Assembly: GCA_026195275.1 (NCBI GenBank)
Contig: JAPHQU010000001.1
Location: forward strand, 12,318-76,317
DNA from: Minisyncoccota bacterium
Lineage (GTDB): Bacteria; Patescibacteriota; Minisyncoccia; Phycocordibacterales; JABMNX01
Reading direction: 5' to 3'
DNA: 64,000 bases
In this document: positions 30,325 through 40,133 of the stretch, in pieces
Layout: each line of letters starts with the position of its first letter
Position numbering within the stretch: position 1 is the stretch's first letter
Program-made: the position numbers and the translations under genes
The notes under the pieces: model-generated
The model's database searches: none
The model's input: only the letters and a program-made list of their open reading frames with translations
What the model was told of the DNA's origin: nothing

Positions 30325-30353
30325 AAACGCCAGGCAATGCCTGGCGTTTTTTA
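30325..30353. terminator. Intrinsic terminator hairpin aaacgccaggc-aat-gcctggcgtttttt
   Basis: Perfect 10-bp GC-rich stem followed by a T6 run on the plus strand. Confidence 0.7.
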
Positions 30354-30707
30354 TTCTGCGTCGTGAATAGTATTCTGTCTGAGGACATCCGGGTCGCCTG
30401 AGTCGATTGCTTCAAGCTCCGGCTCAAGTTCACTTCGTACCCGATCGCGGTCAACGAGCTCAAATGCTGAGTAACCTTCTGCGTCGTTGTTGTAGCGAAG
30501 CGCGAGGTTCTCGCGTTCAAACCAATCAAAGAATTCTTCCCACTCAATCCGCTCGACCTCAGTATTATTTGGGTCAAATGCAATGTCCATCACAAGCGGT
30601 CGGTCAGTATCCTCGTCCGTAACCCCTGAGATCACAACCGGGAAACCACCATGGCTTTCGATCCACTTCTTCACATTGCTAAAATTTTTCGTGTATCTAT
30701 CTCTCAT
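30351..30707 (-). CDS. Hypothetical acidic protein
   Basis: Likely start MRDRYTKNF at 30707 (the ORF track extends to 30854 and would overlap the helicase). No recognisable motif. Confidence 0.4.
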   Translation of the reverse strand: MRDRYTKNFSNVKKWIESHGGFPVVISGVTDEDTDRPLVMDIAFDPNNTEVERIEWEEFFDWFERENLALRYNNDAEGYSAFELVDRDRVRSELEPELEAIDSGDPDVLRQNTIHDAE

Positions 30708-30756
30708 ATTCGTACGCCCATAGTACTCCTTTGATCTGAAGTCGACAAGCTCACGC

Positions 30757-32442
30757 TTATACAAACAACCGCGCAATGCGAAGCTCCTCGTAGGTGTACT
30801 CCCCTTTAAGCGCGCGGTGGACTGGAGCGAGCTTGGTGTCCTTTGCTTTCTCAAAGGCCGCTTTTATCTTCTTGAGGTCTTTTGCCTTCGGTTTGAAGCG
30901 CGCAAGGTCGATGTCCGCACCGAGCTTCTGGAGTTTTTCAAGATGTGAGACGATCGTGCTGAGCGTCATGCCGCGCGCCTTTGCGATATCCTTAAGAGAG
31001 AGACCCTCTTCGATAAGTAGCCGCGTCTGTTCGTGCGTGGGGACCTTTTCTCGTACACCCTCCCGTTTCATGTCTGCATTCCGTGCGGCGTTCTTTAGGA
31101 TTTCCTTTTCATCTACCGTGCCGCCCATACGCTCAACAAACTCTTTGTGCATCTCTGCAACCTCACCTGCTGAAAAACGCGAGATGACCCGCTCCCATTT
31201 CGCTGACTCGCGGCGCAGGTGAGAATCATACTCAAGCACCTCACGGTTGACTTCAAGCGCCTGGTCATTCAGCCCGCGTAGAGTAAGCCCCTTAAGGGTA
31301 CGCAAACGTGAGAGTGCAACGTACCCTTGGCCGGATACGAAACATTTTGAAAGGTCAATCTCAGCAGCGTCCAGACTCATCCCCTGACTCTTATGAATCG
31401 TGATCGCCCAGGCAAGCCGAAGCGGAAGCTGAGTCACCTGCGCGACGGTCTTCTCCCCCTCTTCGACACGCCACTCAGCCGGGAGCACGGTGATCTCGTC
31501 TCCATAAAACGTACGCACGACTGGGAAGCCGTCTTCAAAACCGGTGATCACGCCGAGTGTACCGTTCACGTAGCCCGCCTCAAAGTTGTTCTTCACAAAC
31601 ATCACCACCGCATCTTCCTTGAGTGAGAGTGTCTCAGGTGCGAGAAGTCCCTTCTTGAGGGACGCGACAACACTCGCTTTGCCCTTTGATTCCATATCGT
31701 ACTCGCGCTCTTCACCCGGCAGTTTCTTGAGCTCAGCGGCATTGAGCGCATCCACGTCCAGGTTGTGGGTGTAGAGCCGTGTCGGCCGCACCTTACCTTC
31801 AGGCTCACCTTCCTCCCCCATACACCCCTCAAGAAGTGAACATGACTCGTTTGATACGTCACCACTCCGCATCTCGTTTAAGATATTCAAAAGCGCGTCG
31901 TCACTCTGTCTGAACTGCTCGTCGAGGTAGCACACACGAATGTCTGCCGCACCCCAAGCATCAGACGCGTATGCAAACTCGATCATCCGACTCCCGCGCA
32001 CCACTGGTGGCAACTGAAAGAAGTCTCCCGAGAGAACAAGCTGCATACCGCCAAACGGTTGATCGACTTGCTTCATTGCACGTGCCAGCCGATCAAGCGA
32101 GTCGAAGATCGCGGGTGTGAGCATCGACACCTCATCGATGATGAGCACCTTCGTCTTGTCATAACGCTTAAAGAGGTACTCCTTCTGCACGAGCGCGTCG
32201 ATGTCCATGTCGGAAAGGAAATCTTTGATGCCAATACCGGACCATGAATGAATGGTCACCCCACCAAAGTGCGTTGCGGCAATGCCTGTCGAGGCAGTGA
32301 GCCCGACTGCAACTCCGCGGTCTTTCAAAAAGGAGATGTACTCGCGGAGCACATGCGTCTTACCTGAGCCGGCCGGCCCAGTGAGGTAGGCATTGCGTCC
32401 CGCCTTCAAGATATCAAGTGCTTGCGCTTGCTTCATGAACAC
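30757..32442 (-). CDS. Pif1/RecD-family (SF1B) DNA helicase with C-terminal helix-turn-helix domain
   Basis: Walker A LTGPAGSGKTHVL. Walker B LIIDEVSM. QFRQ motif. TIHKSQGMSLD and VALSRL motifs typical of Pif1/RecD/TraA helicases. C-terminal LSLKDIAKARGMTLSTIVSHLEKL HTH. Confidence 0.8.
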   Translation of the reverse strand: MFMKQAQALDILKAGRNAYLTGPAGSGKTHVLREYISFLKDRGVAVGLTASTGIAATHFGGVTIHSWSGIGIKDFLSDMDIDALVQKEYLFKRYDKTKVLIIDEVSMLTPAIFDSLDRLARAMKQVDQPFGGMQLVLSGDFFQLPPVVRGSRMIEFAYASDAWGAADIRVCYLDEQFRQSDDALLNILNEMRSGDVSNESCSLLEGCMGEEGEPEGKVRPTRLYTHNLDVDALNAAELKKLPGEEREYDMESKGKASVVASLKKGLLAPETLSLKEDAVVMFVKNNFEAGYVNGTLGVITGFEDGFPVVRTFYGDEITVLPAEWRVEEGEKTVAQVTQLPLRLAWAITIHKSQGMSLDAAEIDLSKCFVSGQGYVALSRLRTLKGLTLRGLNDQALEVNREVLEYDSHLRRESAKWERVISRFSAGEVAEMHKEFVERMGGTVDEKEILKNAARNADMKREGVREKVPTHEQTRLLIEEGLSLKDIAKARGMTLSTIVSHLEKLQKLGADIDLARFKPKAKDLKKIKAAFEKAKDTKLAPVHRALKGEYTYEELRIARLFV

Positions 32443-32457
32443 ATTTTATCACACATA

Positions 32458-32490
32458 CAAAAACCGCCTGCTCGTGCAGGCGGTTTTTGT
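32458..32490. terminator. Bidirectional intrinsic terminator aaaaaccgcctgc-tcgtg-caggcggttttt
   Basis: Perfect 9-bp GC stem with A/T runs on both sides, 6 nt after the small ORF stop. Confidence 0.7.
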
Positions 32491-32495
32491 ACGTA

Positions 32496-32684
32496 TTACG
32501 AATTCACTGTCGTGCGTTTGCGGTATGCGTGCACCACTTTGCGCTGTTCCTCATTTGCTTCTCTTAACACCTGAGTAATGACCTTTTTCTTATCACCAGC
32601 AGATCTTGAGAAAAACTCTGAAAAATCGTTCTCTCTCGCCTCTGACTGTCCGAAGGAAGAGAAAAACCTAATGAATTTCGTCAT
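32496..32684 (-). CDS. Small hypothetical protein (62 aa) translationally coupled to the zeta-toxin-like gene
   Basis: ATGA start/stop overlap with the upstream gene, followed immediately by a terminator. MTKFIRFFSSFGQSEARENDFSEFFSRSAGDKKKVITQVLREANEEQRKVVHAYRKRTTVNS. Confidence 0.4.
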   Translation of the reverse strand: MTKFIRFFSSFGQSEARENDFSEFFSRSAGDKKKVITQVLREANEEQRKVVHAYRKRTTVNS

Positions 32685-33394
32685 ATAAGTAACGTGTTTA
32701 AATCATCTACAGAATACCTCCCATCAGCCAAACGGTCAATATCCGCTACAGACCCGTTCAGTTTAAGCTTCTCGGTACCTGTTTCGTAGTCCTTGATGAG
32801 CACATTAATCTTAATAGCATCTCCAAGCTTCCTTTTCACCGATTTTACATTTTCCCGAGAATCAAAGAACGCTCTCACAAACACGTCTTTGGATACGTGT
32901 CGCGCCTCCTCCAGTTCTCTCGCCTTAGTGAACTCCCATGCATGACGCGGATCTTGATATACAAACCACACCTCCACCCGGCGTCCTCTTTTTAATGAAC
33001 GCCTGATGTTATCCTCCACACCACCATACGCAAAGGTCCCGTCCATGATGCAGTTGATATCATTGCTCAGCGCATGATCATACAGAAAGTTGACACCTTT
33101 GTTTGCCGCTCTCTGAAATACGTGAGCGTTGTCTCCTGTATACCCGGGGCAAAATGCGCGTATTTCATCTGCGTCGATACGCACCGGGGCGTCCTTAATA
33201 AACCTCTTCATCAGCCCTTTTGACACTTCTGTCTTCCCTGCGCCAGGGGACCCGGCCATGAACAATGAAACTGGTTTACTCACAGAATGACACACTTCGG
33301 TCGGACAGAACCTCTCGATGAGTTCTTTCTTGTGGGTTTTGATATATTCAAGCGCTTCGTCTTCCAGCTTCTTCTCTTCTTCAGTCATGCTCAC
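32681..33394 (-). CDS. Zeta-toxin family P-loop kinase
   Basis: Walker A MAGSPGAGKTEV. RIDADEIRAFCPGY matches the zeta/PezT xIDxDxFR..HP phosphotransfer motif. Length 237 aa. Confidence 0.7.
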   Translation of the reverse strand: MSMTEEEKKLEDEALEYIKTHKKELIERFCPTEVCHSVSKPVSLFMAGSPGAGKTEVSKGLMKRFIKDAPVRIDADEIRAFCPGYTGDNAHVFQRAANKGVNFLYDHALSNDINCIMDGTFAYGGVEDNIRRSLKRGRRVEVWFVYQDPRHAWEFTKARELEEARHVSKDVFVRAFFDSRENVKSVKRKLGDAIKINVLIKDYETGTEKLKLNGSVADIDRLADGRYSVDDLNTLLI

Positions 33395-33435
33395 AGTGTA
33401 TCATGCATACTACACTCCATTTTCTAAACTCTATT

Positions 33436-33476
33436 AAAAACAACAAACACCGCTTGCGCGGTGTTTGTTGTTTGCC
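33436..33476. terminator. Hairpin aacaacaaacaccgc-ttgc-gcggtgtttgttgtt
   Basis: Perfect 15-bp inverted repeat in the typA to zeta intergenic region. Confidence 0.5.
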
Positions 33477-33654
33477 CAAAGCGTCTATTCAGTCCTGTTA
33501 CATACTGCGCGGTATCACTCCGAGGAGATCAACCGTAGGCGCTAAGGTATGTAAGATAGTACTCTTCCAAAGAAATATGTGCAAACTCGATTTGTGCACA
33601 AACCTGTGGATACGCTGTGTATAAAAAATCGCTGTAAAGTGGCTCAGCAGAGGC

Positions 33655-33689
33655 AAAATAAACGCCAGGCACGGCCTGGCGTTTATTTT
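33655..33689. terminator. Hairpin aaaataaacgccaggc-acgg-cctggcgtttatttt (typA terminator)
   Basis: Perfect inverted repeat with A/T flanks directly after the typA stop. The stem sequence is related to the hairpins at 30325 and 40782. Confidence 0.6.
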
Positions 33690-35626: not shown

Positions 35627-37099
35627 CTACTCTGCTCTTCCTTGAGTGATGTTGAGTGCTGGTCTATACAAGAATGGGATCCAAAATGTAGGTGTATCTT
35701 TATTTCCTCTTTTCTCAAAAAAACCCACGTTTGTTAGTTTTATTGCAATCTTTTCTGTTTCATCATCATCTACGCTCCATATCTTCTTTAAAGTAGCTAG
35801 GGTATGCTCCGCTTTCTCGCCTTCAAGTTTTTCTATGTAAGGTTTTGATTTTGGAAATTCAGCATATAGAGTCTGATGAAGTCTGGTTCGAGAGACTTGA
35901 GGCAATGCTTCTTTCACTGAAGTCCTACTAAATAATGGTTCTTTATCCTCACTAGCTTGCCCCATTTCGAAACTCCTTGTTTCTTCCTCTCTGATTTGAT
36001 TAAGCAACTGAATAAGCTCCCTGGGGGCTACAGTATCTGTCCCATCGGTGCATCTCGTTACCATCCACTTGAAAGTTTCAGGTTTTTTGGGTCCCAGGTC
36101 CACTTGTTTGGGGAAGATTCTATAAAATAACTCTTGTTGCTTTGTATAATCAGACAATACATCATTTGGATTAACCCCAAAATATTCACTAATCTGAGGA
36201 TTGATGAGTATTCGACGCATTATCAAATTCAATAACTTTGCTTCACTCCAGTCAATGGTCACGTGTCGTGTAATATGGCTTGCTTCTCTGAAGCCTTGTT
36301 CAGTAATCCTTTTCCATATATCGGTGCGAAGAAAGATTTTAAGTTTTATGCTTTCTGCACTGAGTAAACTTAGGTAACAATGAAACAATGCTCGAAGCGC
36401 ATTTTCTTCAAGATTATGGTTCTCCTTAAACGCGACATCTAATCTGTCAATTGCAATCCAGACTATAAGATTTTCCATCCTTAATGCCTGATTGGCGTAA
36501 GTGATGAGTTGGTCGATAGATATATTAACCTTTGAATCGTCCGTAGGATCACCTTCAAGAGATGCTTTGCCAACACATGAGACCATTCCCGTATTAGGGT
36601 CAAATGTTAACATTCCTTCTAGCGATTGAAGTTTTCGTTTATTGATAAAGTCTAGAATTCTCGAAATCAAAGTCTTCTTATCTTGCTCTAAAAAGCCGGC
36701 CCTCCTCAACACTGCTGTAAGTTCATTCGCAGGGTTATTCTTAACTTTTGCTTCTTGTAAGAAAAGACCAACCAAAGAAACGAAGTAAAGTTTCCAGAGT
36801 GACTGGAAATCTACCTCACTTGTAGGTGGTTTTATCTCAATATTTTGAAATGCCGTGTCTCCTCGTGGATTTTCAGCGGATATAATAGAGGCCTCTTCTA
36901 TCTTGTCGTTCTTTTCAAGCAACAGAGTGTAAAGAGCGCTCTTTCCTGAACCTTTATGGCCGTAGACAATATCAATCTCTCCTGCAATAACTCGATTCCA
37001 CTGATCTGTTTCCACAAAATATTTTGAGAGGTCGCTGCTCTCGCTTTCGGCTACCCCTTCACCAAATCTTAATGACTTAACTAGTTCGCTTCTTTCCAT
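35627..37099 (-). CDS. P-loop NTPase of unknown function, encoded directly downstream of the R-M pair
   Basis: Walker A IVYGHKGSGKSALYTLL. Candidate Walker B LIVWIAIDRLD. 490 aa, no TM, no nuclease motif recognised. AT-rich codon usage like the neighbouring R-M genes. Confidence 0.6.
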   Translation of the reverse strand: MERSELVKSLRFGEGVAESESSDLSKYFVETDQWNRVIAGEIDIVYGHKGSGKSALYTLLLEKNDKIEEASIISAENPRGDTAFQNIEIKPPTSEVDFQSLWKLYFVSLVGLFLQEAKVKNNPANELTAVLRRAGFLEQDKKTLISRILDFINKRKLQSLEGMLTFDPNTGMVSCVGKASLEGDPTDDSKVNISIDQLITYANQALRMENLIVWIAIDRLDVAFKENHNLEENALRALFHCYLSLLSAESIKLKIFLRTDIWKRITEQGFREASHITRHVTIDWSEAKLLNLIMRRILINPQISEYFGVNPNDVLSDYTKQQELFYRIFPKQVDLGPKKPETFKWMVTRCTDGTDTVAPRELIQLLNQIREEETRSFEMGQASEDKEPLFSRTSVKEALPQVSRTRLHQTLYAEFPKSKPYIEKLEGEKAEHTLATLKKIWSVDDDETEKIAIKLTNVGFFEKRGNKDTPTFWIPFLYRPALNITQGRAE

Positions 37100-37256
37100 T
37101 TCTACATAATATACTTAATTTCATGGATTAACCACCTGTATTATTGGTATCCTTTCTAGAAAATCTGTAGTTTTATTACCTCTTAAATCCCCTTCTTCAT
37201 GTTTCTCTGGATCTGTTCCACCCCACACTCCCAAAATACATAAACCTTCCAGTCGG

Positions 37257-38576
37257 CTATGCTTCGTACTCGTCGACATACTTGATGAGGTTCTTCCCTA
37301 TCTTGGCGATAATACCCGTCACCAAAGCATTACCGATGAAGAATGCTCGTGTGTTGTCAGACACAGGGCCATTCACTCCCTCTGCGGTGTGATTATCTGG
37401 GAACATGCTCAGCCGCTCTAACTCGACCGGAGTGAGCCTCCTCATCTTCCCACTTTGAGGAGATTGTACCACATGCTTGAAACGTGAAGGTCCACTACCG
37501 CCCTCGCCCGTAACAACTGTCCGAGACGGTTTGTCCAATGAGTCGGGAAATGACATGCCACCTTCCGAGAAAACATACGATTCACCGGTGTGTTTATTAA
37601 CACGCTCTATCTTCTTTGCGCCTTTCTGCTTCTTCCATTTCTTTATGACCTCTTTGTCGTCTATGAAATATTCCTCACCAACCTCCTTGTCGGCAAGCAG
37701 CACATCCCCAAGAACCACGGTCGTCTTTGCTGGTTTGGGTGTGACCTTTGCAGTATATACATCACCGTTTATCATCACACCCGCATTATGAAAAGGTGAC
37801 ACCTTCAAACCGCGCCCAAAATGATCTGATATCTGTTTCTCGTCTTCGTGTAGGAGTATCTCGTTGAGCTCATGTTCTTGAACACGCTTGATTGGGAATG
37901 CTTTACCAAAGACGCCCTCATGCAACCACCTAAGATGCCCCTTTGAACGCATTTGTTTTGCTATACCACTATTGTTCTTGTAGGCAAGGATGAATATCCT
38001 TCTTCGGCGCTGCGGGAAACCATGGTCAGCCGCATTGATAACACGCCACTCAACGTCATACCCAAGAGTCTCAAGGGAGCGAAGCATAACAGCAAAGTCG
38101 CGACCCCGCTGTGTCCCCGGTGACTTCAGCAAACGGTCGACATTCTCGAGGAGTAGTATCTTTGGGGCTTTGCGACCGCGCTTCTCCTGTAACTGCTGCA
38201 CAAGCGACACAATCGACCACCACAAGACCCCTTTCTTCCCAATAATGCCGGCCGACTGTCGAAGTGGCTTTGCTACAGAATAGTCTTGGCATGGGAAACC
38301 ACCAACAAGAATGTCGTGATCAGGAACCGAATCTATATGATACTTCACAACCTCTTCGATGTTGGTGTTGGTATGCAAAAGGTTCTCCACGCCCCAATTC
38401 TTTGAATACACATCATGAGCGTGCTGTTGTTTCTTGCCGGGCTCCCACTGATTGAACCAAACTGTCTCAAAGCGATTCCGTGACGCCTTCTCAAAGCCGA
38501 CACGAAATCCACCAACTCCCGCAAAGAGTTCTGCCACGCGCAATTTATTGTCGGACATTCCAGGCTTTTTCTTCAT
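37257..38576 (-). CDS. DNA (cytosine-5)-methyltransferase
   Basis: Motif I ELFAGVGGFRVGF (FxGxGG). Motif IV GGFPCQDYS (PCQ). Motif VI ENV (LLENVDRLL). C-terminal GNAL (motif X). Confidence 0.9.
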   Translation of the reverse strand: MKKKPGMSDNKLRVAELFAGVGGFRVGFEKASRNRFETVWFNQWEPGKKQQHAHDVYSKNWGVENLLHTNTNIEEVVKYHIDSVPDHDILVGGFPCQDYSVAKPLRQSAGIIGKKGVLWWSIVSLVQQLQEKRGRKAPKILLLENVDRLLKSPGTQRGRDFAVMLRSLETLGYDVEWRVINAADHGFPQRRRRIFILAYKNNSGIAKQMRSKGHLRWLHEGVFGKAFPIKRVQEHELNEILLHEDEKQISDHFGRGLKVSPFHNAGVMINGDVYTAKVTPKPAKTTVVLGDVLLADKEVGEEYFIDDKEVIKKWKKQKGAKKIERVNKHTGESYVFSEGGMSFPDSLDKPSRTVVTGEGGSGPSRFKHVVQSPQSGKMRRLTPVELERLSMFPDNHTAEGVNGPVSDNTRAFFIGNALVTGIIAKIGKNLIKYVDEYEA

Positions 38577-38606
38577 GCCCCTATTCTACCAAGCAGAGAA
38601 AAAAGA

Positions 38607-40133
38607 TCAATCTTGATCTTTGTCGTTTTCTATTGCATGCTGAATATATTTGGCATTGAGCCAGAATCCTTGTTTTGTAAAGGTTTTCCAGCCAGTGAGC
38701 TGGTCAGGGACCGGTAGCTCATTTGTTATACCCCTGTTTGTGGTGTGAGGGCGCACGTGCGCTACACCATTGAAGGTGCTACCTGGAAAATGATTATATA
38801 TTCTCCCGTCGGCTTTTTGGGGGACTTTCTTTATTATTTTCCCTTCATTCAGCAACTCAATAGTCTTCTCCCAAGTCTCCCGCGCCTTACCCATGTCTTC
38901 CGCAGGGAAATTCCAGAACATTGTCTTTTGCAAGATAATCTCATCAGATTCTTCTTGTTTCTGGAAAACAACAAAGAGGAACTTTTTCTCTTCAAGTTGT
39001 GCATGAAAATCACTCATTTGCTCTGCTTCTTCGTCATACCACACTTGTGTAACGAGGTCTTTGAAATTAAATGCCGGGAAAGAAACAGACTCTTTTAGGG
39101 AGCCGTCCGGTTCTAGCGCCAACACCTTCAGCGTCACATCTGCTTTCTCAAGCTCCTCTACCTTGTTTGACCCTGTGCCCGTAAGGATATGGTTAGCTAT
39201 GAGTCGTTTGTAATTCTTTGGTTTCACTTTTGGCTTCCATTTAAGCATCTTGAGAATCTCGGTATCAGTCTTTCCGATGAATTTCCTAAATCTATCTTCG
39301 ACAACCTGGTCGATAGTTTTCGTCTTTGGTGCTCCTTTATATATAGAAACCTCGTCTGGAGAGACCCCGAGCAGCTTCGTCTGTATAAGATAATTCAGGT
39401 ACGCCTGCTTCAAAGAAAACGCGCGTGGCTTTGCTGGAATGCGCGATTTTGGCTGGTCGCGAACCACACGGCTGTGCGCCGCTTTTGTACACGCACCAAG
39501 ATAGAATGTATCGCCTTCAGATAGCTCGTGCGCCTTACCGTCCCGAATCTTGTCGACAATGCACTCCCAGTCCTTCTTGATTTGCACAACATCCTCTTGA
39601 GAAAGCCCTTCGAGTAGATCGAGAAAATGTACGAACTTGAATTTATAATCCAAAAGACTTGCTTCTTTCAGCCAAAGATAAAAGATGAGCAGGAGGAAGC
39701 GGTTCTTCTTGAGAAAAGAGCTGGTCTCCCACTTTTCGCTAATCACTGTGTCGTAATTAATCATAGAGAAGACGAGACGCTCCTTCGAAACAAACCGCTT
39801 CTTGTTGTGCTTCTTTAGCGGGGTTGCTTTAAGCTCAACATTTGCAACTTTGAAGTCCGCCTCCGCTCTACCATTATTCTCTAGGTCAAACACATATTGC
39901 TCAACAAGGTCACCAAAAAAACCCTTTCGGCGGGTTCCGTATTTCCCGAGCTGTTTCTCAATATCATCTGCTTCCTCTTTCGACACAATATCTCGAAGAG
40001 TCTTCCCTAGGACTGCTTCTGCTGCTGTTATGACATCTTCTGCTGTCTGATACTGTGTGTCTTGCATACTTAGATTTATACACCAATCATAGGACACTCG
40101 TCCAACCACCTCTTGAGACGATGACGTGGTCAA
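38607..40133 (-). CDS. Sau3AI/MutH-family type II restriction endonuclease (predicted GATC-type)
   Basis: 508 aa, size like R.Sau3AI. N-terminal MutH-like catalytic motif GRAEADFKVANVELKATP (D...E-x-K), which parallels the MutH D70...E77-L-K79 block and resembles the MutH/Sau3AI PDFxxLGVELKTIP block as recalled from memory. Adjacent and co-oriented with an m5C MTase, as in the Sau3AI system. The start may be the internal Met at 40067. Confidence 0.6.
   Translation of the reverse strand: MTTSSSQEVVGRVSYDWCINLSMQDTQYQTAEDVITAAEAVLGKTLRDIVSKEEADDIEKQLGKYGTRRKGFFGDLVEQYVFDLENNGRAEADFKVANVELKATPLKKHNKKRFVSKERLVFSMINYDTVISEKWETSSFLKKNRFLLLIFYLWLKEASLLDYKFKFVHFLDLLEGLSQEDVVQIKKDWECIVDKIRDGKAHELSEGDTFYLGACTKAAHSRVVRDQPKSRIPAKPRAFSLKQAYLNYLIQTKLLGVSPDEVSIYKGAPKTKTIDQVVEDRFRKFIGKTDTEILKMLKWKPKVKPKNYKRLIANHILTGTGSNKVEELEKADVTLKVLALEPDGSLKESVSFPAFNFKDLVTQVWYDEEAEQMSDFHAQLEEKKFLFVVFQKQEESDEIILQKTMFWNFPAEDMGKARETWEKTIELLNEGKIIKKVPQKADGRIYNHFPGSTFNGVAHVRPHTTNRGITNELPVPDQLTGWKTFTKQGFWLNAKYIQHAIENDKDQD

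What the first reader, a model, noticed from the sequence alone, without database searches (positions are those of the whole stretch)
32496..33394. Zeta-toxin family kinase with no upstream epsilon-type antitoxin but a translationally coupled 62 aa downstream ORF
The 237 aa protein has the zeta/PezT Walker A (GSPGAGKTEV) and the D-x-D-x-[FI]-R phosphotransfer motif (RIDADEIRAF). Classical epsilon/zeta and PezAT operons put the antitoxin upstream. Here the upstream region is an intergenic stretch with two hairpins. The only candidate partner is a small ORF overlapping the toxin stop by ATGA, followed 6 nt later by a strong terminator. This is either a reversed-order toxin-antitoxin pair, a solitary zeta kinase (possibly with an antitoxin domain fused or absent), or a housekeeping UNAG-kinase-like enzyme.
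Basis: partly seen in the sequence, partly recalled or inferred. Interest (0 to 1): 0.55.

Follow-up and report, generated by a model that had tools for sequence, protein, structure and literature searches.

The report
Zeta-like kinase with conserved downstream partner
A zeta-toxin-type kinase gene and the tiny gene that overlaps its stop codon form a two-gene cassette that recurs in hundreds of Patescibacteria genomes, in prophages and on plasmids; it is most likely an undescribed toxin–antitoxin or defence pair with the neutraliser encoded after the toxin.

Summary
On the minus strand a 235-aa Zeta_toxin-family kinase (32681-33388) overlaps by ATGA a 62-aa ORF (32496-32684), followed by a strong terminator. 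No antitoxin-like gene lies upstream.

The small ORF is not chance. In 80 of 81 loci (the one without it ends at the kinase stop), most labelled Patescibacteria, a 43-67 aa homologue follows the kinase, with a 4-nt overlap in 56. The same holds in 45 of 47 prophage-type contigs, two proteobacterial plasmids and one unverified wastewater phage contig. The two genes co-diverge, and the small ORF is under purifying selection. Flanking genes are not conserved. They often include restriction-modification genes or, in prophages, repressor, anti-repressor or integrase genes.

The kinase keeps the Walker A lysine and the catalytic Asp. The Arg of the GTXR motif that binds UDP-N-acetylglucosamine is never present in 124 sequences, so the substrate is probably different. 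The small protein matches no known family or structure.

Best reading (about 0.55): a mobile toxin–neutraliser pair ordered like AvrRxo1–Arc1, with a new partner family. Toxicity, binding and substrate are untested. The main rival is a non-toxic kinase with an obligate small subunit.

The parts
32681..33388 (-). Gene for a 235-aa zeta-superfamily P-loop kinase, the putative toxin or effector. An alternative GTG start lies at 33394.
   Evidence: ORF. Pfam Zeta_toxin E=2.6e-38. It is 100% identical to NCBI 'zeta toxin family protein', Candidatus Pacebacteria. AlphaFold2 pLDDT 91.3. Top Foldseek hits are PezT, zeta, Neisseria gonorrhoeae zeta1 and AvrRxo1.
33227..33253 (-). Walker A motif, GSPGAGKTE (aa 46-54).
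   Evidence: Read directly from the sequence. K52 is invariant in 124 family members.
33167..33175 (-). D72-A-D74. D74 aligns with the catalytic Asp66 of PezT (Asp67 of zeta).
   Evidence: HMMER alignments to PezT 2p5t. Both Asp residues are invariant in 124 sequences.
33026..33040 (-). GTFAY (aa 117-121), at the position of the GTXR UNAG-binding motif. Ala replaces the Arg and Tyr replaces the Thr.
   Evidence: Alignments. Motif definition from PMC6362051. Position 120 is A, S, T, Q or H and never R in 124 sequences.
32496..32684 (-). Gene for a 62-aa helical protein, the putative neutraliser. Conserved motif: DFSxFF ... EKKKV..V.R.AN.(D/E)Q.
   Evidence: ORF. Homologues occupy the same position in 80 of 81 loci and in 45 of 47 viral contigs. 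dN/dS is 0.11-0.29. The library holds 1130 representatives at 50% identity, nearly all 55-67 aa among the 150 listed. No known family or fold matches.
32681..32684 (-). ATGA overlap of the kinase stop codon and the small-ORF start codon (translational coupling).
   Evidence: The 4-nt overlap occurs in 56 of 80 loci and some overlap in 64 of 80.
32451..32496 (-). Intrinsic terminator hairpin that ends the two-gene operon. Its A and T runs on both sides make it bidirectional.
   Evidence: -35.3 kcal/mol, z = -10. Also seen. A terminator-like hairpin follows the small ORF in 29 of 80 loci.
33389..33478 (-). 5' region of the operon. It holds a terminator-like hairpin at 33436-33478 that would insulate the operon from upstream transcription. 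A -10-like TGATACACT lies at 33395-33403, directly before the ATG, which suggests a leaderless or very short-leader mRNA.
   Evidence: Hairpin. The -10 box was read. -10-like boxes abut the ATG in other loci, and a Shine-Dalgarno core is present in only 3 of 75. The promoter assignment is inference.

Best explanation
This is a self-contained, mobile two-gene operon. Gene 1 encodes a zeta-superfamily P-loop phosphotransferase. It has an intact ATP site and catalytic base, but its substrate pocket differs from that of the UNAG kinases zeta and PezT.

Gene 2 is translated by termination-reinitiation at the ATGA overlap. It encodes a roughly 60-aa protein made of a flexible N-terminus, a short aromatic DFSxFF turn and one long charged helix.

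The proposed mechanism is that the small protein binds the kinase stoichiometrically and keeps it inactive. It could do this as epsilon, PezA and Arc1 do, by occupying or occluding the nucleotide or substrate cleft. When the small protein is lost or displaced (loss of the element, phage infection, stress), the kinase would phosphorylate an essential nucleotide-type metabolite and arrest growth. That makes it a toxin-first type II toxin–antitoxin or abortive-infection module.

Shown here: family membership, catalytic residues, the strict pairing and coupling, co-inheritance, purifying selection, and the mobile and defence-associated contexts.

Inferred: physical binding, inhibition, toxicity, the trigger and the substrate.
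For: - Kinase identity: Pfam Zeta_toxin E=2.6e-38. The AlphaFold2 model (pLDDT 91) is closest to PezT, zeta, N. gonorrhoeae zeta1 and AvrRxo1. K52, D72, D74, D116, T118 and W151 are invariant and R157 and R163 are 123 of 124 across CPR, prophage and plasmid members.
- Pairing: a 43-67 aa homologous ORF follows the kinase in 80 of 81 loci, starting at -4 in 56. The same is seen in 45 of 47 IMG/VR contigs, on the Shewanella pSA70-4 and Polaromonas plasmids, and on a wastewater phage contig.
- One evolutionary unit: Mantel r = 0.59 between the two proteins' identity matrices, with 0 of 999 permutations reaching it.
- Real coding gene: dN/dS is 0.11-0.29 in unsaturated pairs.
- Autonomy and mobility: no flanking gene family recurs, and no conserved upstream partner exists.
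- CPR contexts: the pair lies next to restriction-modification or other defence-type genes in P0058 (type II RM in one sample, type I RM in another), P0118 and P0030. In this window an RM pair and a PDC-M28C-like ATPase lie one gene away.
- Prophage contexts: the pair lies beside the CI-type repressor, the Ant anti-repressor or the integrase.
- Precedent for toxin-first order in this superfamily: AvrRxo1–Arc1 (PMC4938570).
- Partner shape: a small, mostly helical protein with a disordered N-terminal part, as is usual for proteinaceous antitoxins.
Against: - No experiment or co-folding result shows binding, inhibition or toxicity.
- The kinase is unusually well conserved for a toxin: mean column identity 58% in A1 and mean pairwise identity 47% across 75 loci.
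- Obligate ATGA coupling limits the small protein to about one copy per kinase. That suits a stable complex subunit better than a labile antitoxin made in excess.
- The small protein has no recognisable DNA-binding domain for autoregulation.
- One context (P0026) is purely housekeeping.
- No pseudogenised kinase with an intact partner was seen apart from the one degenerate fusion, P0280.
- PADLOC has no model for the pair.
Confidence: 0.55

Rival explanations
1. The pair is a non-toxic, beneficial kinase holoenzyme. The small protein is an obligate regulatory, adaptor or stabilising subunit. The kinase would act on, for example, a nucleotide, cofactor or polynucleotide, or modify a phage or host component, and there is no poison-antidote logic.
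For: - The kinase is highly conserved and has strong purifying selection (dN/dS 0.06-0.10).
- ATGA coupling gives about 1:1 synthesis.
- The pair is widespread in reduced Patescibacteria genomes, with at least 515 species genomes carrying a relative.
- Housekeeping neighbours occur in P0026 and partly in P0032.
- The pocket is not of the UNAG type.
- Structural neighbours include polynucleotide kinases and PFKFB kinases.
Against: - Neighbourhoods are not conserved, and the cassette moves among prophages, plasmids and defence islands.
- The closest solved structures are all toxins of toxin–antitoxin systems or effectors.
- No metabolic operon context is seen anywhere.
Confidence: 0.3
2. The roles are reversed, as in type VII-like systems. 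The small protein is the harmful component and the kinase neutralises it, for example by phosphorylating the frequently conserved Ser of the DFS motif.
For: - Kinase antitoxins exist in other systems (TakA–TglT; from general knowledge, not tested here).
- A Ser in the DFSxFF motif is common.
- The small protein has an amphipathic N-terminal helix.
Against: - The Ser is not invariant. It is Ala, or absent, in several prophage and Gracilibacteria-type variants.
- The small protein has no membrane segment or enzymatic fold.
- The small protein is encoded second and is translationally dependent on the kinase, which would be normal for a neutraliser in toxin-first pairs.
Confidence: 0.05
3. This is a canonical epsilon/zeta or PezAT-type UNAG kinase toxin whose antitoxin has simply moved downstream.
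For: - Zeta_toxin Pfam hit, Walker A and catalytic Asp.
- Top structural hits are PezT and zeta.
Against: - The GTXR arginine and threonine are replaced (GTFAY here). Arg is never present in 124 members.
- Glu99/100 aligns with Asn or His.
- The NCBIfam PezT model scores 12 bits against a cut-off of 470.
- The partner shows no similarity to epsilon or PezA.
Confidence: 0.07

Closest known systems
AvrRxo1–Arc1 (Xanthomonas and relatives): a zeta-superfamily kinase toxin with a small antitoxin/chaperone encoded downstream
   Same: - Toxin-first gene order with a small helical protein encoded immediately downstream (PMC4938570).
- The kinase belongs to the zeta structural superfamily (Foldseek E about 1e-6, TM 0.59-0.60).
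- The kinase is not a UNAG kinase (AvrRxo1 phosphorylates NAD; PMC5087710 and PMC5491322, listed).
- Flanking genes vary.
   Different: - AvrRxo1 is about 420 aa with a secretion-related N-terminus, against 235 aa here.
- Arc1 is 81-121 aa with a KExFD...YExxYY motif. The partner here is about 60 aa with DFSxFF...AN(D/E)Q, and its profile gives no hit to any PDB chain.
- Kinase sequence identity is only about 14%.
Epsilon/zeta and PezAT toxin–antitoxin systems (Firmicutes plasmids and chromosomes)
   Same: - Pfam family, fold, Walker A, the catalytic Asp and the conserved downstream arginines.
- A bicistronic module on mobile elements.
   Different: - The antitoxin is upstream in those systems. 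Here nothing conserved lies upstream.
- The GTXR UNAG motif is not conserved here.
- The partner is unrelated to epsilon or PezA.
- Identity to PezT is about 20%, and single-sequence phmmer gives only E=0.024.
Rv0366c–Rv0367c, the non-canonical PezAT-like pair of Mycobacterium tuberculosis
   Same: A zeta-family kinase that keeps the nucleotide-binding and catalytic residues but lacks the GTXR motif, so its substrate is unknown (PMC6362051).
   Different: - The paper treats that pair as PezAT-like; its gene order was not checked in the passages read.
- Homology to that kinase was not tested here.
- The partner families were not compared here (the Rv0367c sequence was not examined).
EzeT of E. 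coli (antitoxin domain fused in cis to a zeta kinase)
   Same: It shows that zeta kinases tolerate non-classical arrangements of the neutralising element (PMC4826407, listed; otherwise from general knowledge).
   Different: - EzeT is a single polypeptide with an N-terminal inhibitory domain.
- Here the neutraliser candidate is a separate downstream gene. Only one degenerate fusion was seen among the 150 best of 1130 representatives.

Membership tests
Zeta_toxin (Pfam PF06414) P-loop kinase superfamily | Scores above the Pfam gathering threshold. | tested here: met
   131.9 bits against a cut-off of 22.3, E=2.6e-38, covering profile positions 9-181 of 199.
Zeta_toxin (Pfam PF06414) P-loop kinase superfamily | Walker A GxxGxGK[ST], and a catalytic Asp in the D-x-D segment after strand 2. 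| tested here: met
   GSPGAGKTE and RIDADEIR are present. D74 aligns with PezT D66. K52, D72 and D74 are invariant in 124 members.
Zeta_toxin (Pfam PF06414) P-loop kinase superfamily | Zeta/PezT-like three-dimensional fold. | tested here: met
   The AlphaFold2 model has pLDDT 91.3. Foldseek top hits are 2p5t, 3q8x and 1gvn with E about 2e-9 and TM 0.63-0.67.
UNAG-kinase toxins sensu stricto (zeta, PezT, N. gonorrhoeae zeta1) | GTXR motif that binds UDP-N-acetylglucosamine (Gly117-Thr121 in zeta). | tested here: not met
   The sequence here is GTFAY. The Arg position is A, S, T, Q or H and never R in 124 sequences. The motif is as defined in PMC6362051.
UNAG-kinase toxins sensu stricto (zeta, PezT, N. 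gonorrhoeae zeta1) | Substrate-site Glu100 (zeta) / Glu99 (PezT). | tested here: inconclusive
   In the phmmer alignment PezT E99 faces Asn, and this column is N or H in the family. The alignment around an indel is uncertain.
UNAG-kinase toxins sensu stricto (zeta, PezT, N. gonorrhoeae zeta1) | Phosphorylates UNAG at the 3'-OH and blocks MurA and cell-wall synthesis. | not testable with these tools
   This needs an enzyme assay or metabolomics.
Epsilon/zeta and PezAT operons | An epsilon- or PezA-type antitoxin encoded immediately upstream. | tested here: not met
   The upstream 299 nt has only ORFs with no family match. No upstream gene family recurs across 75-80 loci. NCBIfam PezT scores 12.3 bits against a cut-off of 470.
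AvrRxo1–Arc1 modules | The kinase gene is followed immediately by a small co-oriented ORF. | tested here: met
   An ATGA overlap is present here. A small co-oriented ORF follows immediately (overlapping or within 19 nt) in 78 of 80 loci, and overlaps the kinase stop in 64.
AvrRxo1–Arc1 modules | The partner is homologous to Arc1 (81-121 aa, motif KExFD(x25-27)(Y/L)ExxYY). | tested here: not met
   The profile of the small protein finds no PDB chain of Arc1, epsilon or PezA at E<=10. The motif is absent from the alignment. The motif is taken from PMC4938570.
AvrRxo1–Arc1 modules | The kinase is an orthologue of AvrRxo1 (about 400 aa, an NAD 3'-kinase). | tested here: not met
   The kinase is 235 aa. 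There is no sequence-level hit to 4z8q, only fold-level similarity. Activity is not testable here.
Type II toxin–antitoxin systems (generic) | Two small adjacent co-oriented genes, inherited as a pair in variable and mobile contexts. | tested here: met
Type II toxin–antitoxin systems (generic) | The toxin arrests growth, and the antitoxin protein binds and neutralises it. | not testable with these tools
It needs a toxicity-rescue assay and a pull-down.
Type II toxin–antitoxin systems (generic) | The antitoxin carries a DNA-binding domain for autoregulation. This is common but not universal. | tested here: not met
   No HTH, RHH or AbrB hit in Pfam or NCBIfam. The model is one long helix with a short turn. 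Epsilon also lacks such a domain.

The most novel reading that the evidence does not exclude
The pair is a previously unrecognised and very widespread abortive-infection or toxin–antitoxin family. It would be among the commonest conflict cassettes of Patescibacteria and would be shared with proteobacterial prophages and plasmids. Its zeta-like kinase would phosphorylate a target other than UNAG, and its 60-aa partner would be a new antitoxin fold. The partner would inhibit by inserting the DFSxFF aromatic turn into the kinase cleft and would be released on phage attack.
Probability: 0.35. Interest if true: 0.72.

Novelty: new variant of a known kind. Interest (0 to 1): 0.55.

Why it matters
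Zeta-family kinases are a major toxin class, but many are listed as 'orphans' because antitoxins were sought only upstream (PMC10532202). This finding supplies a candidate partner family for a large orphan clade: 1130 representatives at 50% identity, with no Pfam model.

It also shows that the toxin-first order known from AvrRxo1–Arc1 is widespread. It points to a kinase clade whose substrate is probably not UNAG.

The pair gives a concrete, easily cloned two-gene system for studying conflict systems in Patescibacteria. Almost nothing about their toxin–antitoxin or defence biology has been tested, and close relatives exist in cultivable Proteobacteria (Shewanella and Polaromonas plasmids, prophages).

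Tried and rejected
- Known-family searches for the small protein all returned nothing meaningful: Pfam, NCBIfam, PADLOC and PHROGs on the single sequence, Pfam on 35 members, a profile against PDB sequences, and Foldseek of the model. The single Sec7 hit (E=0.004, below cut-off) was not shared by other members.
- The afdb50 fold library was unavailable.
- Rfam and tRNA scans of the upstream intergenic region gave only sub-threshold sRNA hits.
- A Shine-Dalgarno comparison, meant to judge whether the small ORF can be translated independently, was uninformative. The kinase genes also lack the motif (3 of 75).
- dN/dS was saturated for most pairs. Only five close pairs were usable.
- E. coli genomes and GenBank phages hold no DNA match to a prophage copy.
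- Literature searches for zeta toxin with CPR, Patescibacteria, phage defence or prophage found no description of this pair.
- The idea of a fused or absent antitoxin was rejected. The one fusion found (P0280) is a degenerate kinase with an internal deletion.

Full report
**1. What is in the window**

Both ORFs lie on the minus strand. The larger runs 32681..33394 from a GTG. The identical database protein (P0001, 'zeta toxin family protein', Candidatus Pacebacteria MAG, 235 aa) and all homologues begin at the ATG at 33388.

It carries GSPGAGKTE (aa 46-54) and RIDADEIR (aa 70-77). The 62-aa ORF (32496..32684) starts with the ATG of an ATGA that contains the kinase stop codon.

After its stop codon comes a very stable hairpin (-35.3 kcal/mol, z = -10) with A and U runs on both sides. 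Immediately beyond it the next gene begins, a Pif1-type helicase with a C-terminal HTH_40 domain.

Upstream, 33389-33687 separates the kinase from typA/bipA. This stretch holds two terminator-like hairpins. Its ORFs match no family, and it has no Rfam family at gathering score and no tRNA. The window holds a single copy of each gene.

**2. The kinase**

Pfam Zeta_toxin scores 131.9 bits (E=2.6e-38). At sequence level the only solved relative is PezT, at E=0.024 with the single sequence and 1.3e-5 with a family profile.

An AlphaFold2 model built on 29 homologues is confident (pLDDT 91.3, pTM 0.87). Its best PDB matches are PezT (2p5t), zeta (3q8x, 1gvn), N. gonorrhoeae zeta1 (6epg) and AvrRxo1 (4z8q), followed by PFKFB and polynucleotide kinases.

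The alignments put D74 on the catalytic Asp66 of PezT. In 124 family members from all sources, K52, D72, D74, D116, T118 and W151 are invariant, and R157 and R163 are conserved in 123.

The GTXR motif that binds UDP-N-acetylglucosamine in zeta and PezT (PMC6362051) reads GTFAY here. The Arg position is A, S, T, Q or H and never Arg in the 124 sequences. The NCBIfam PezT equivalog model scores 12 bits against a cut-off of 470. So this is an active-looking zeta-superfamily kinase, but not a demonstrable UNAG kinase.

**3. The small ORF is a real, conserved partner**

Most of the best 80 are labelled as Patescibacteria or candidate phyla placed in that group (Parcubacteria, Microgenomates, Gracilibacteria/Peregrinibacteria, Doudnabacteria and others); about ten carry other labels (Gammaproteobacteria, Bdellovibrionales, Burkholderiales, Moraxellaceae, Planctomycetota, Omnitrophica) that were not checked.

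In 80 of 81 loci, counting the window, a 43-67 aa ORF follows on the same strand; the one exception, L031, ends at the kinase stop. It starts at -4 in 56 loci and overlaps the kinase stop in 64. These products align into one family with the motif DFSxFF...(A/S)S..EKKKV..V.R.AN.(D/E)Q.

In the five close locus pairs whose synonymous sites were least saturated (dS 0.44-0.95), dN/dS is 0.11-0.29. The kinase gives 0.06-0.10 in the same pairs.

Pairwise identities of the two proteins are correlated across 75 loci (Mantel r = 0.59, 0 of 999 permutations), so they are inherited together.

An exhaustive profile search finds 1130 representatives at 50% identity. Of the 150 best listed, nearly all are stand-alone proteins of 55-67 aa, and the only kinase fusion (P0280) is a degenerate kinase read through into the partner.

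The family has no Pfam, NCBIfam, PADLOC or PHROG model, no PDB relative by profile and no Foldseek match. Sources call it 'hypothetical protein'.

The predicted structure has a weakly predicted N-terminal helix, a disordered linker, a short helix over DFSEFF and a confident long helix at residues 29-61.

**4. Context**

Nothing but the pair recurs around the kinase. The largest flanking gene family is shared by only 4 of 80 loci, and no upstream ORF family is shared beyond two pairs of loci.

Pfam-annotated contexts in Patescibacteria are often of the defence-island type:
- The identical kinase P0058 lies beside an EVE gene and a type II RM system in one metagenome, and beside the same EVE gene and a type I RM system in another.
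- P0118 lies between an N6/N4 methylase with DUF6996/6997 and a NERD protein.
- P0030 lies near an SRA-Mrr nuclease, DUF3800, PRiA4_ORF3 and a Y1 transposase.
- In this window, a C5 methylase, a MutH/Sau3AI-like nuclease and an ATPase matching PADLOC PDC-M28C lie just beyond typA.
- P0026 is surrounded by housekeeping genes, and P0032 follows pilus genes.

Outside Patescibacteria, the kinase with its small partner occurs on the 19-kb Shewanella plasmid pSA70-4, on a Polaromonas plasmid and on an unverified wastewater phage contig. It also occurs in 45 of 47 IMG/VR contigs at 34-42% kinase identity.

In those prophage-type contigs the pair sits directly downstream of a CI-type repressor (L093, L123), near one (L116), between Ant and the cI/cro/cII switch (L089, L103), or after a serine integrase (L090). 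From general knowledge, these are the usual places for lysogen-expressed exclusion, toxin–antitoxin and defence genes.

**5. Interpretation**

The data fit an autonomous, horizontally mobile bicistronic cassette. A zeta-type kinase would be the effector, and a translationally coupled small helical protein would be its cognate neutraliser.

The toxin-first order has a precedent inside the same structural superfamily. In AvrRxo1–Arc1 the downstream Arc1 protects against the kinase (PMC4938570). A recent survey of 'orphan' PezT/zeta toxins looked for partners only upstream (PMC10532202). This may explain why the partner has gone unnoticed, and no paper found describes it.

This step, the toxicity and the trigger are inferences.

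The missing GTXR arginine argues that the target is a phosphoacceptor other than UNAG. AvrRxo1 acts on NAD and the GTXR-less Rv0366c has no known substrate, so such divergence has precedent.

**6. Rivals**

The serious alternative is a non-toxic kinase holoenzyme with an obligate small subunit. Points in its favour:
- The kinase is highly conserved.
- ATGA coupling gives about 1:1 synthesis.
- The small protein has no DNA-binding domain.
- Inactivated kinases were not seen apart from P0280.

The mobile and defence-associated contexts and the identity of the nearest structural relatives count against it.

A reversed-role (type VII-like) reading and a canonical UNAG-kinase reading are each given low weight. 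In the first, the motif Ser is not invariant. In the second, the GTXR test fails.

**7. Verdict**

Its 'reversed-order pair' option is the best supported, and the 'solitary' and 'housekeeping UNAG kinase' options are not supported.

The finding is a new variant of a known kind: a zeta-superfamily toxin–antitoxin-like module with a new, widespread downstream partner family and a probably different substrate. Function remains to be shown. The decisive tests are co-folding, toxicity-rescue and substrate identification.

Noticed in passing
window 35627-40133 (-): A 490-aa P-loop ATPase matches the PADLOC candidate-defence model PDC-M28C (E=4e-20). It is followed by a C5 cytosine methylase (37257-38576) and a MutH/Sau3AI-like nuclease (38607-40133). 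This restriction-modification/defence cluster is one gene (typA) away from the kinase pair.
   Followed up: partly
window 30757-32442 (-): A Pif1-family helicase with a C-terminal HTH_40 domain starts right after the terminator of the pair. A similar helicase lies downstream of the pair in two other loci (L003/P0030 context and one more). It also hits PADLOC RecD-like and PDC-S68 models.
   Followed up: partly
window 33479-33650 (-): About 170 nt lie between two terminator-like hairpins upstream of the kinase. The stretch has no credible ORF and no Rfam family, but the whole intergenic region folds far better than shuffles (z = -5). It could be a small RNA gene or a remnant.
   Followed up: partly
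L136 and L137 (contexts of P0058): The identical kinase-partner pair and the same downstream genes are preceded by a type II RM system (Vsr, C5 methylase, MvaI/BcnI) in one metagenome. In another they are preceded by a type I RM system (HsdS, HsdR). This looks like a swap hotspot typical of defence islands.
   Followed up: no
L001-L080, start regions of the kinase genes: Only 3 of 75 kinase genes have a Shine-Dalgarno core. In several loci a TAGAAT/TATAAT-like -10 box lies within about 10 nt of the ATG; in the window it is TGATACACT at 33395-33403. This suggests leaderless or near-leaderless transcripts.
   Followed up: no
L089, L093, L103, L116, L123, L090 (IMG/VR contigs): In prophage-type contigs the pair sits beside the CI-type repressor, the Ant anti-repressor, the cI/cro/cII switch or a serine integrase. 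These are lysogeny-control regions where exclusion and defence genes usually reside.
   Followed up: yes
P0280 (237 aa, metagenomic protein): A kinase with an internal deletion of about 60 residues is fused in frame to the small partner. It is probably a decaying copy or an assembly or frameshift artefact. It is the only kinase fusion among the 150 best of 1130 representatives.
   Followed up: partly
L062, L066, L067, L070 versus L081, L085 and prophage loci: Some loci labelled Patescibacteria (L062, L066) carry the small-protein variant (EFSxFIREASSGEKKKVF) that is typical of proteobacterial plasmids and prophages. This hints at transfer between phyla or at mis-binned contigs.
   Followed up: no
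window 30351-30854 (-): A 167-aa ORF overlaps the 3' end of the helicase gene by about 100 nt and has no Pfam match. Its real start is probably further downstream.
   Followed up: no
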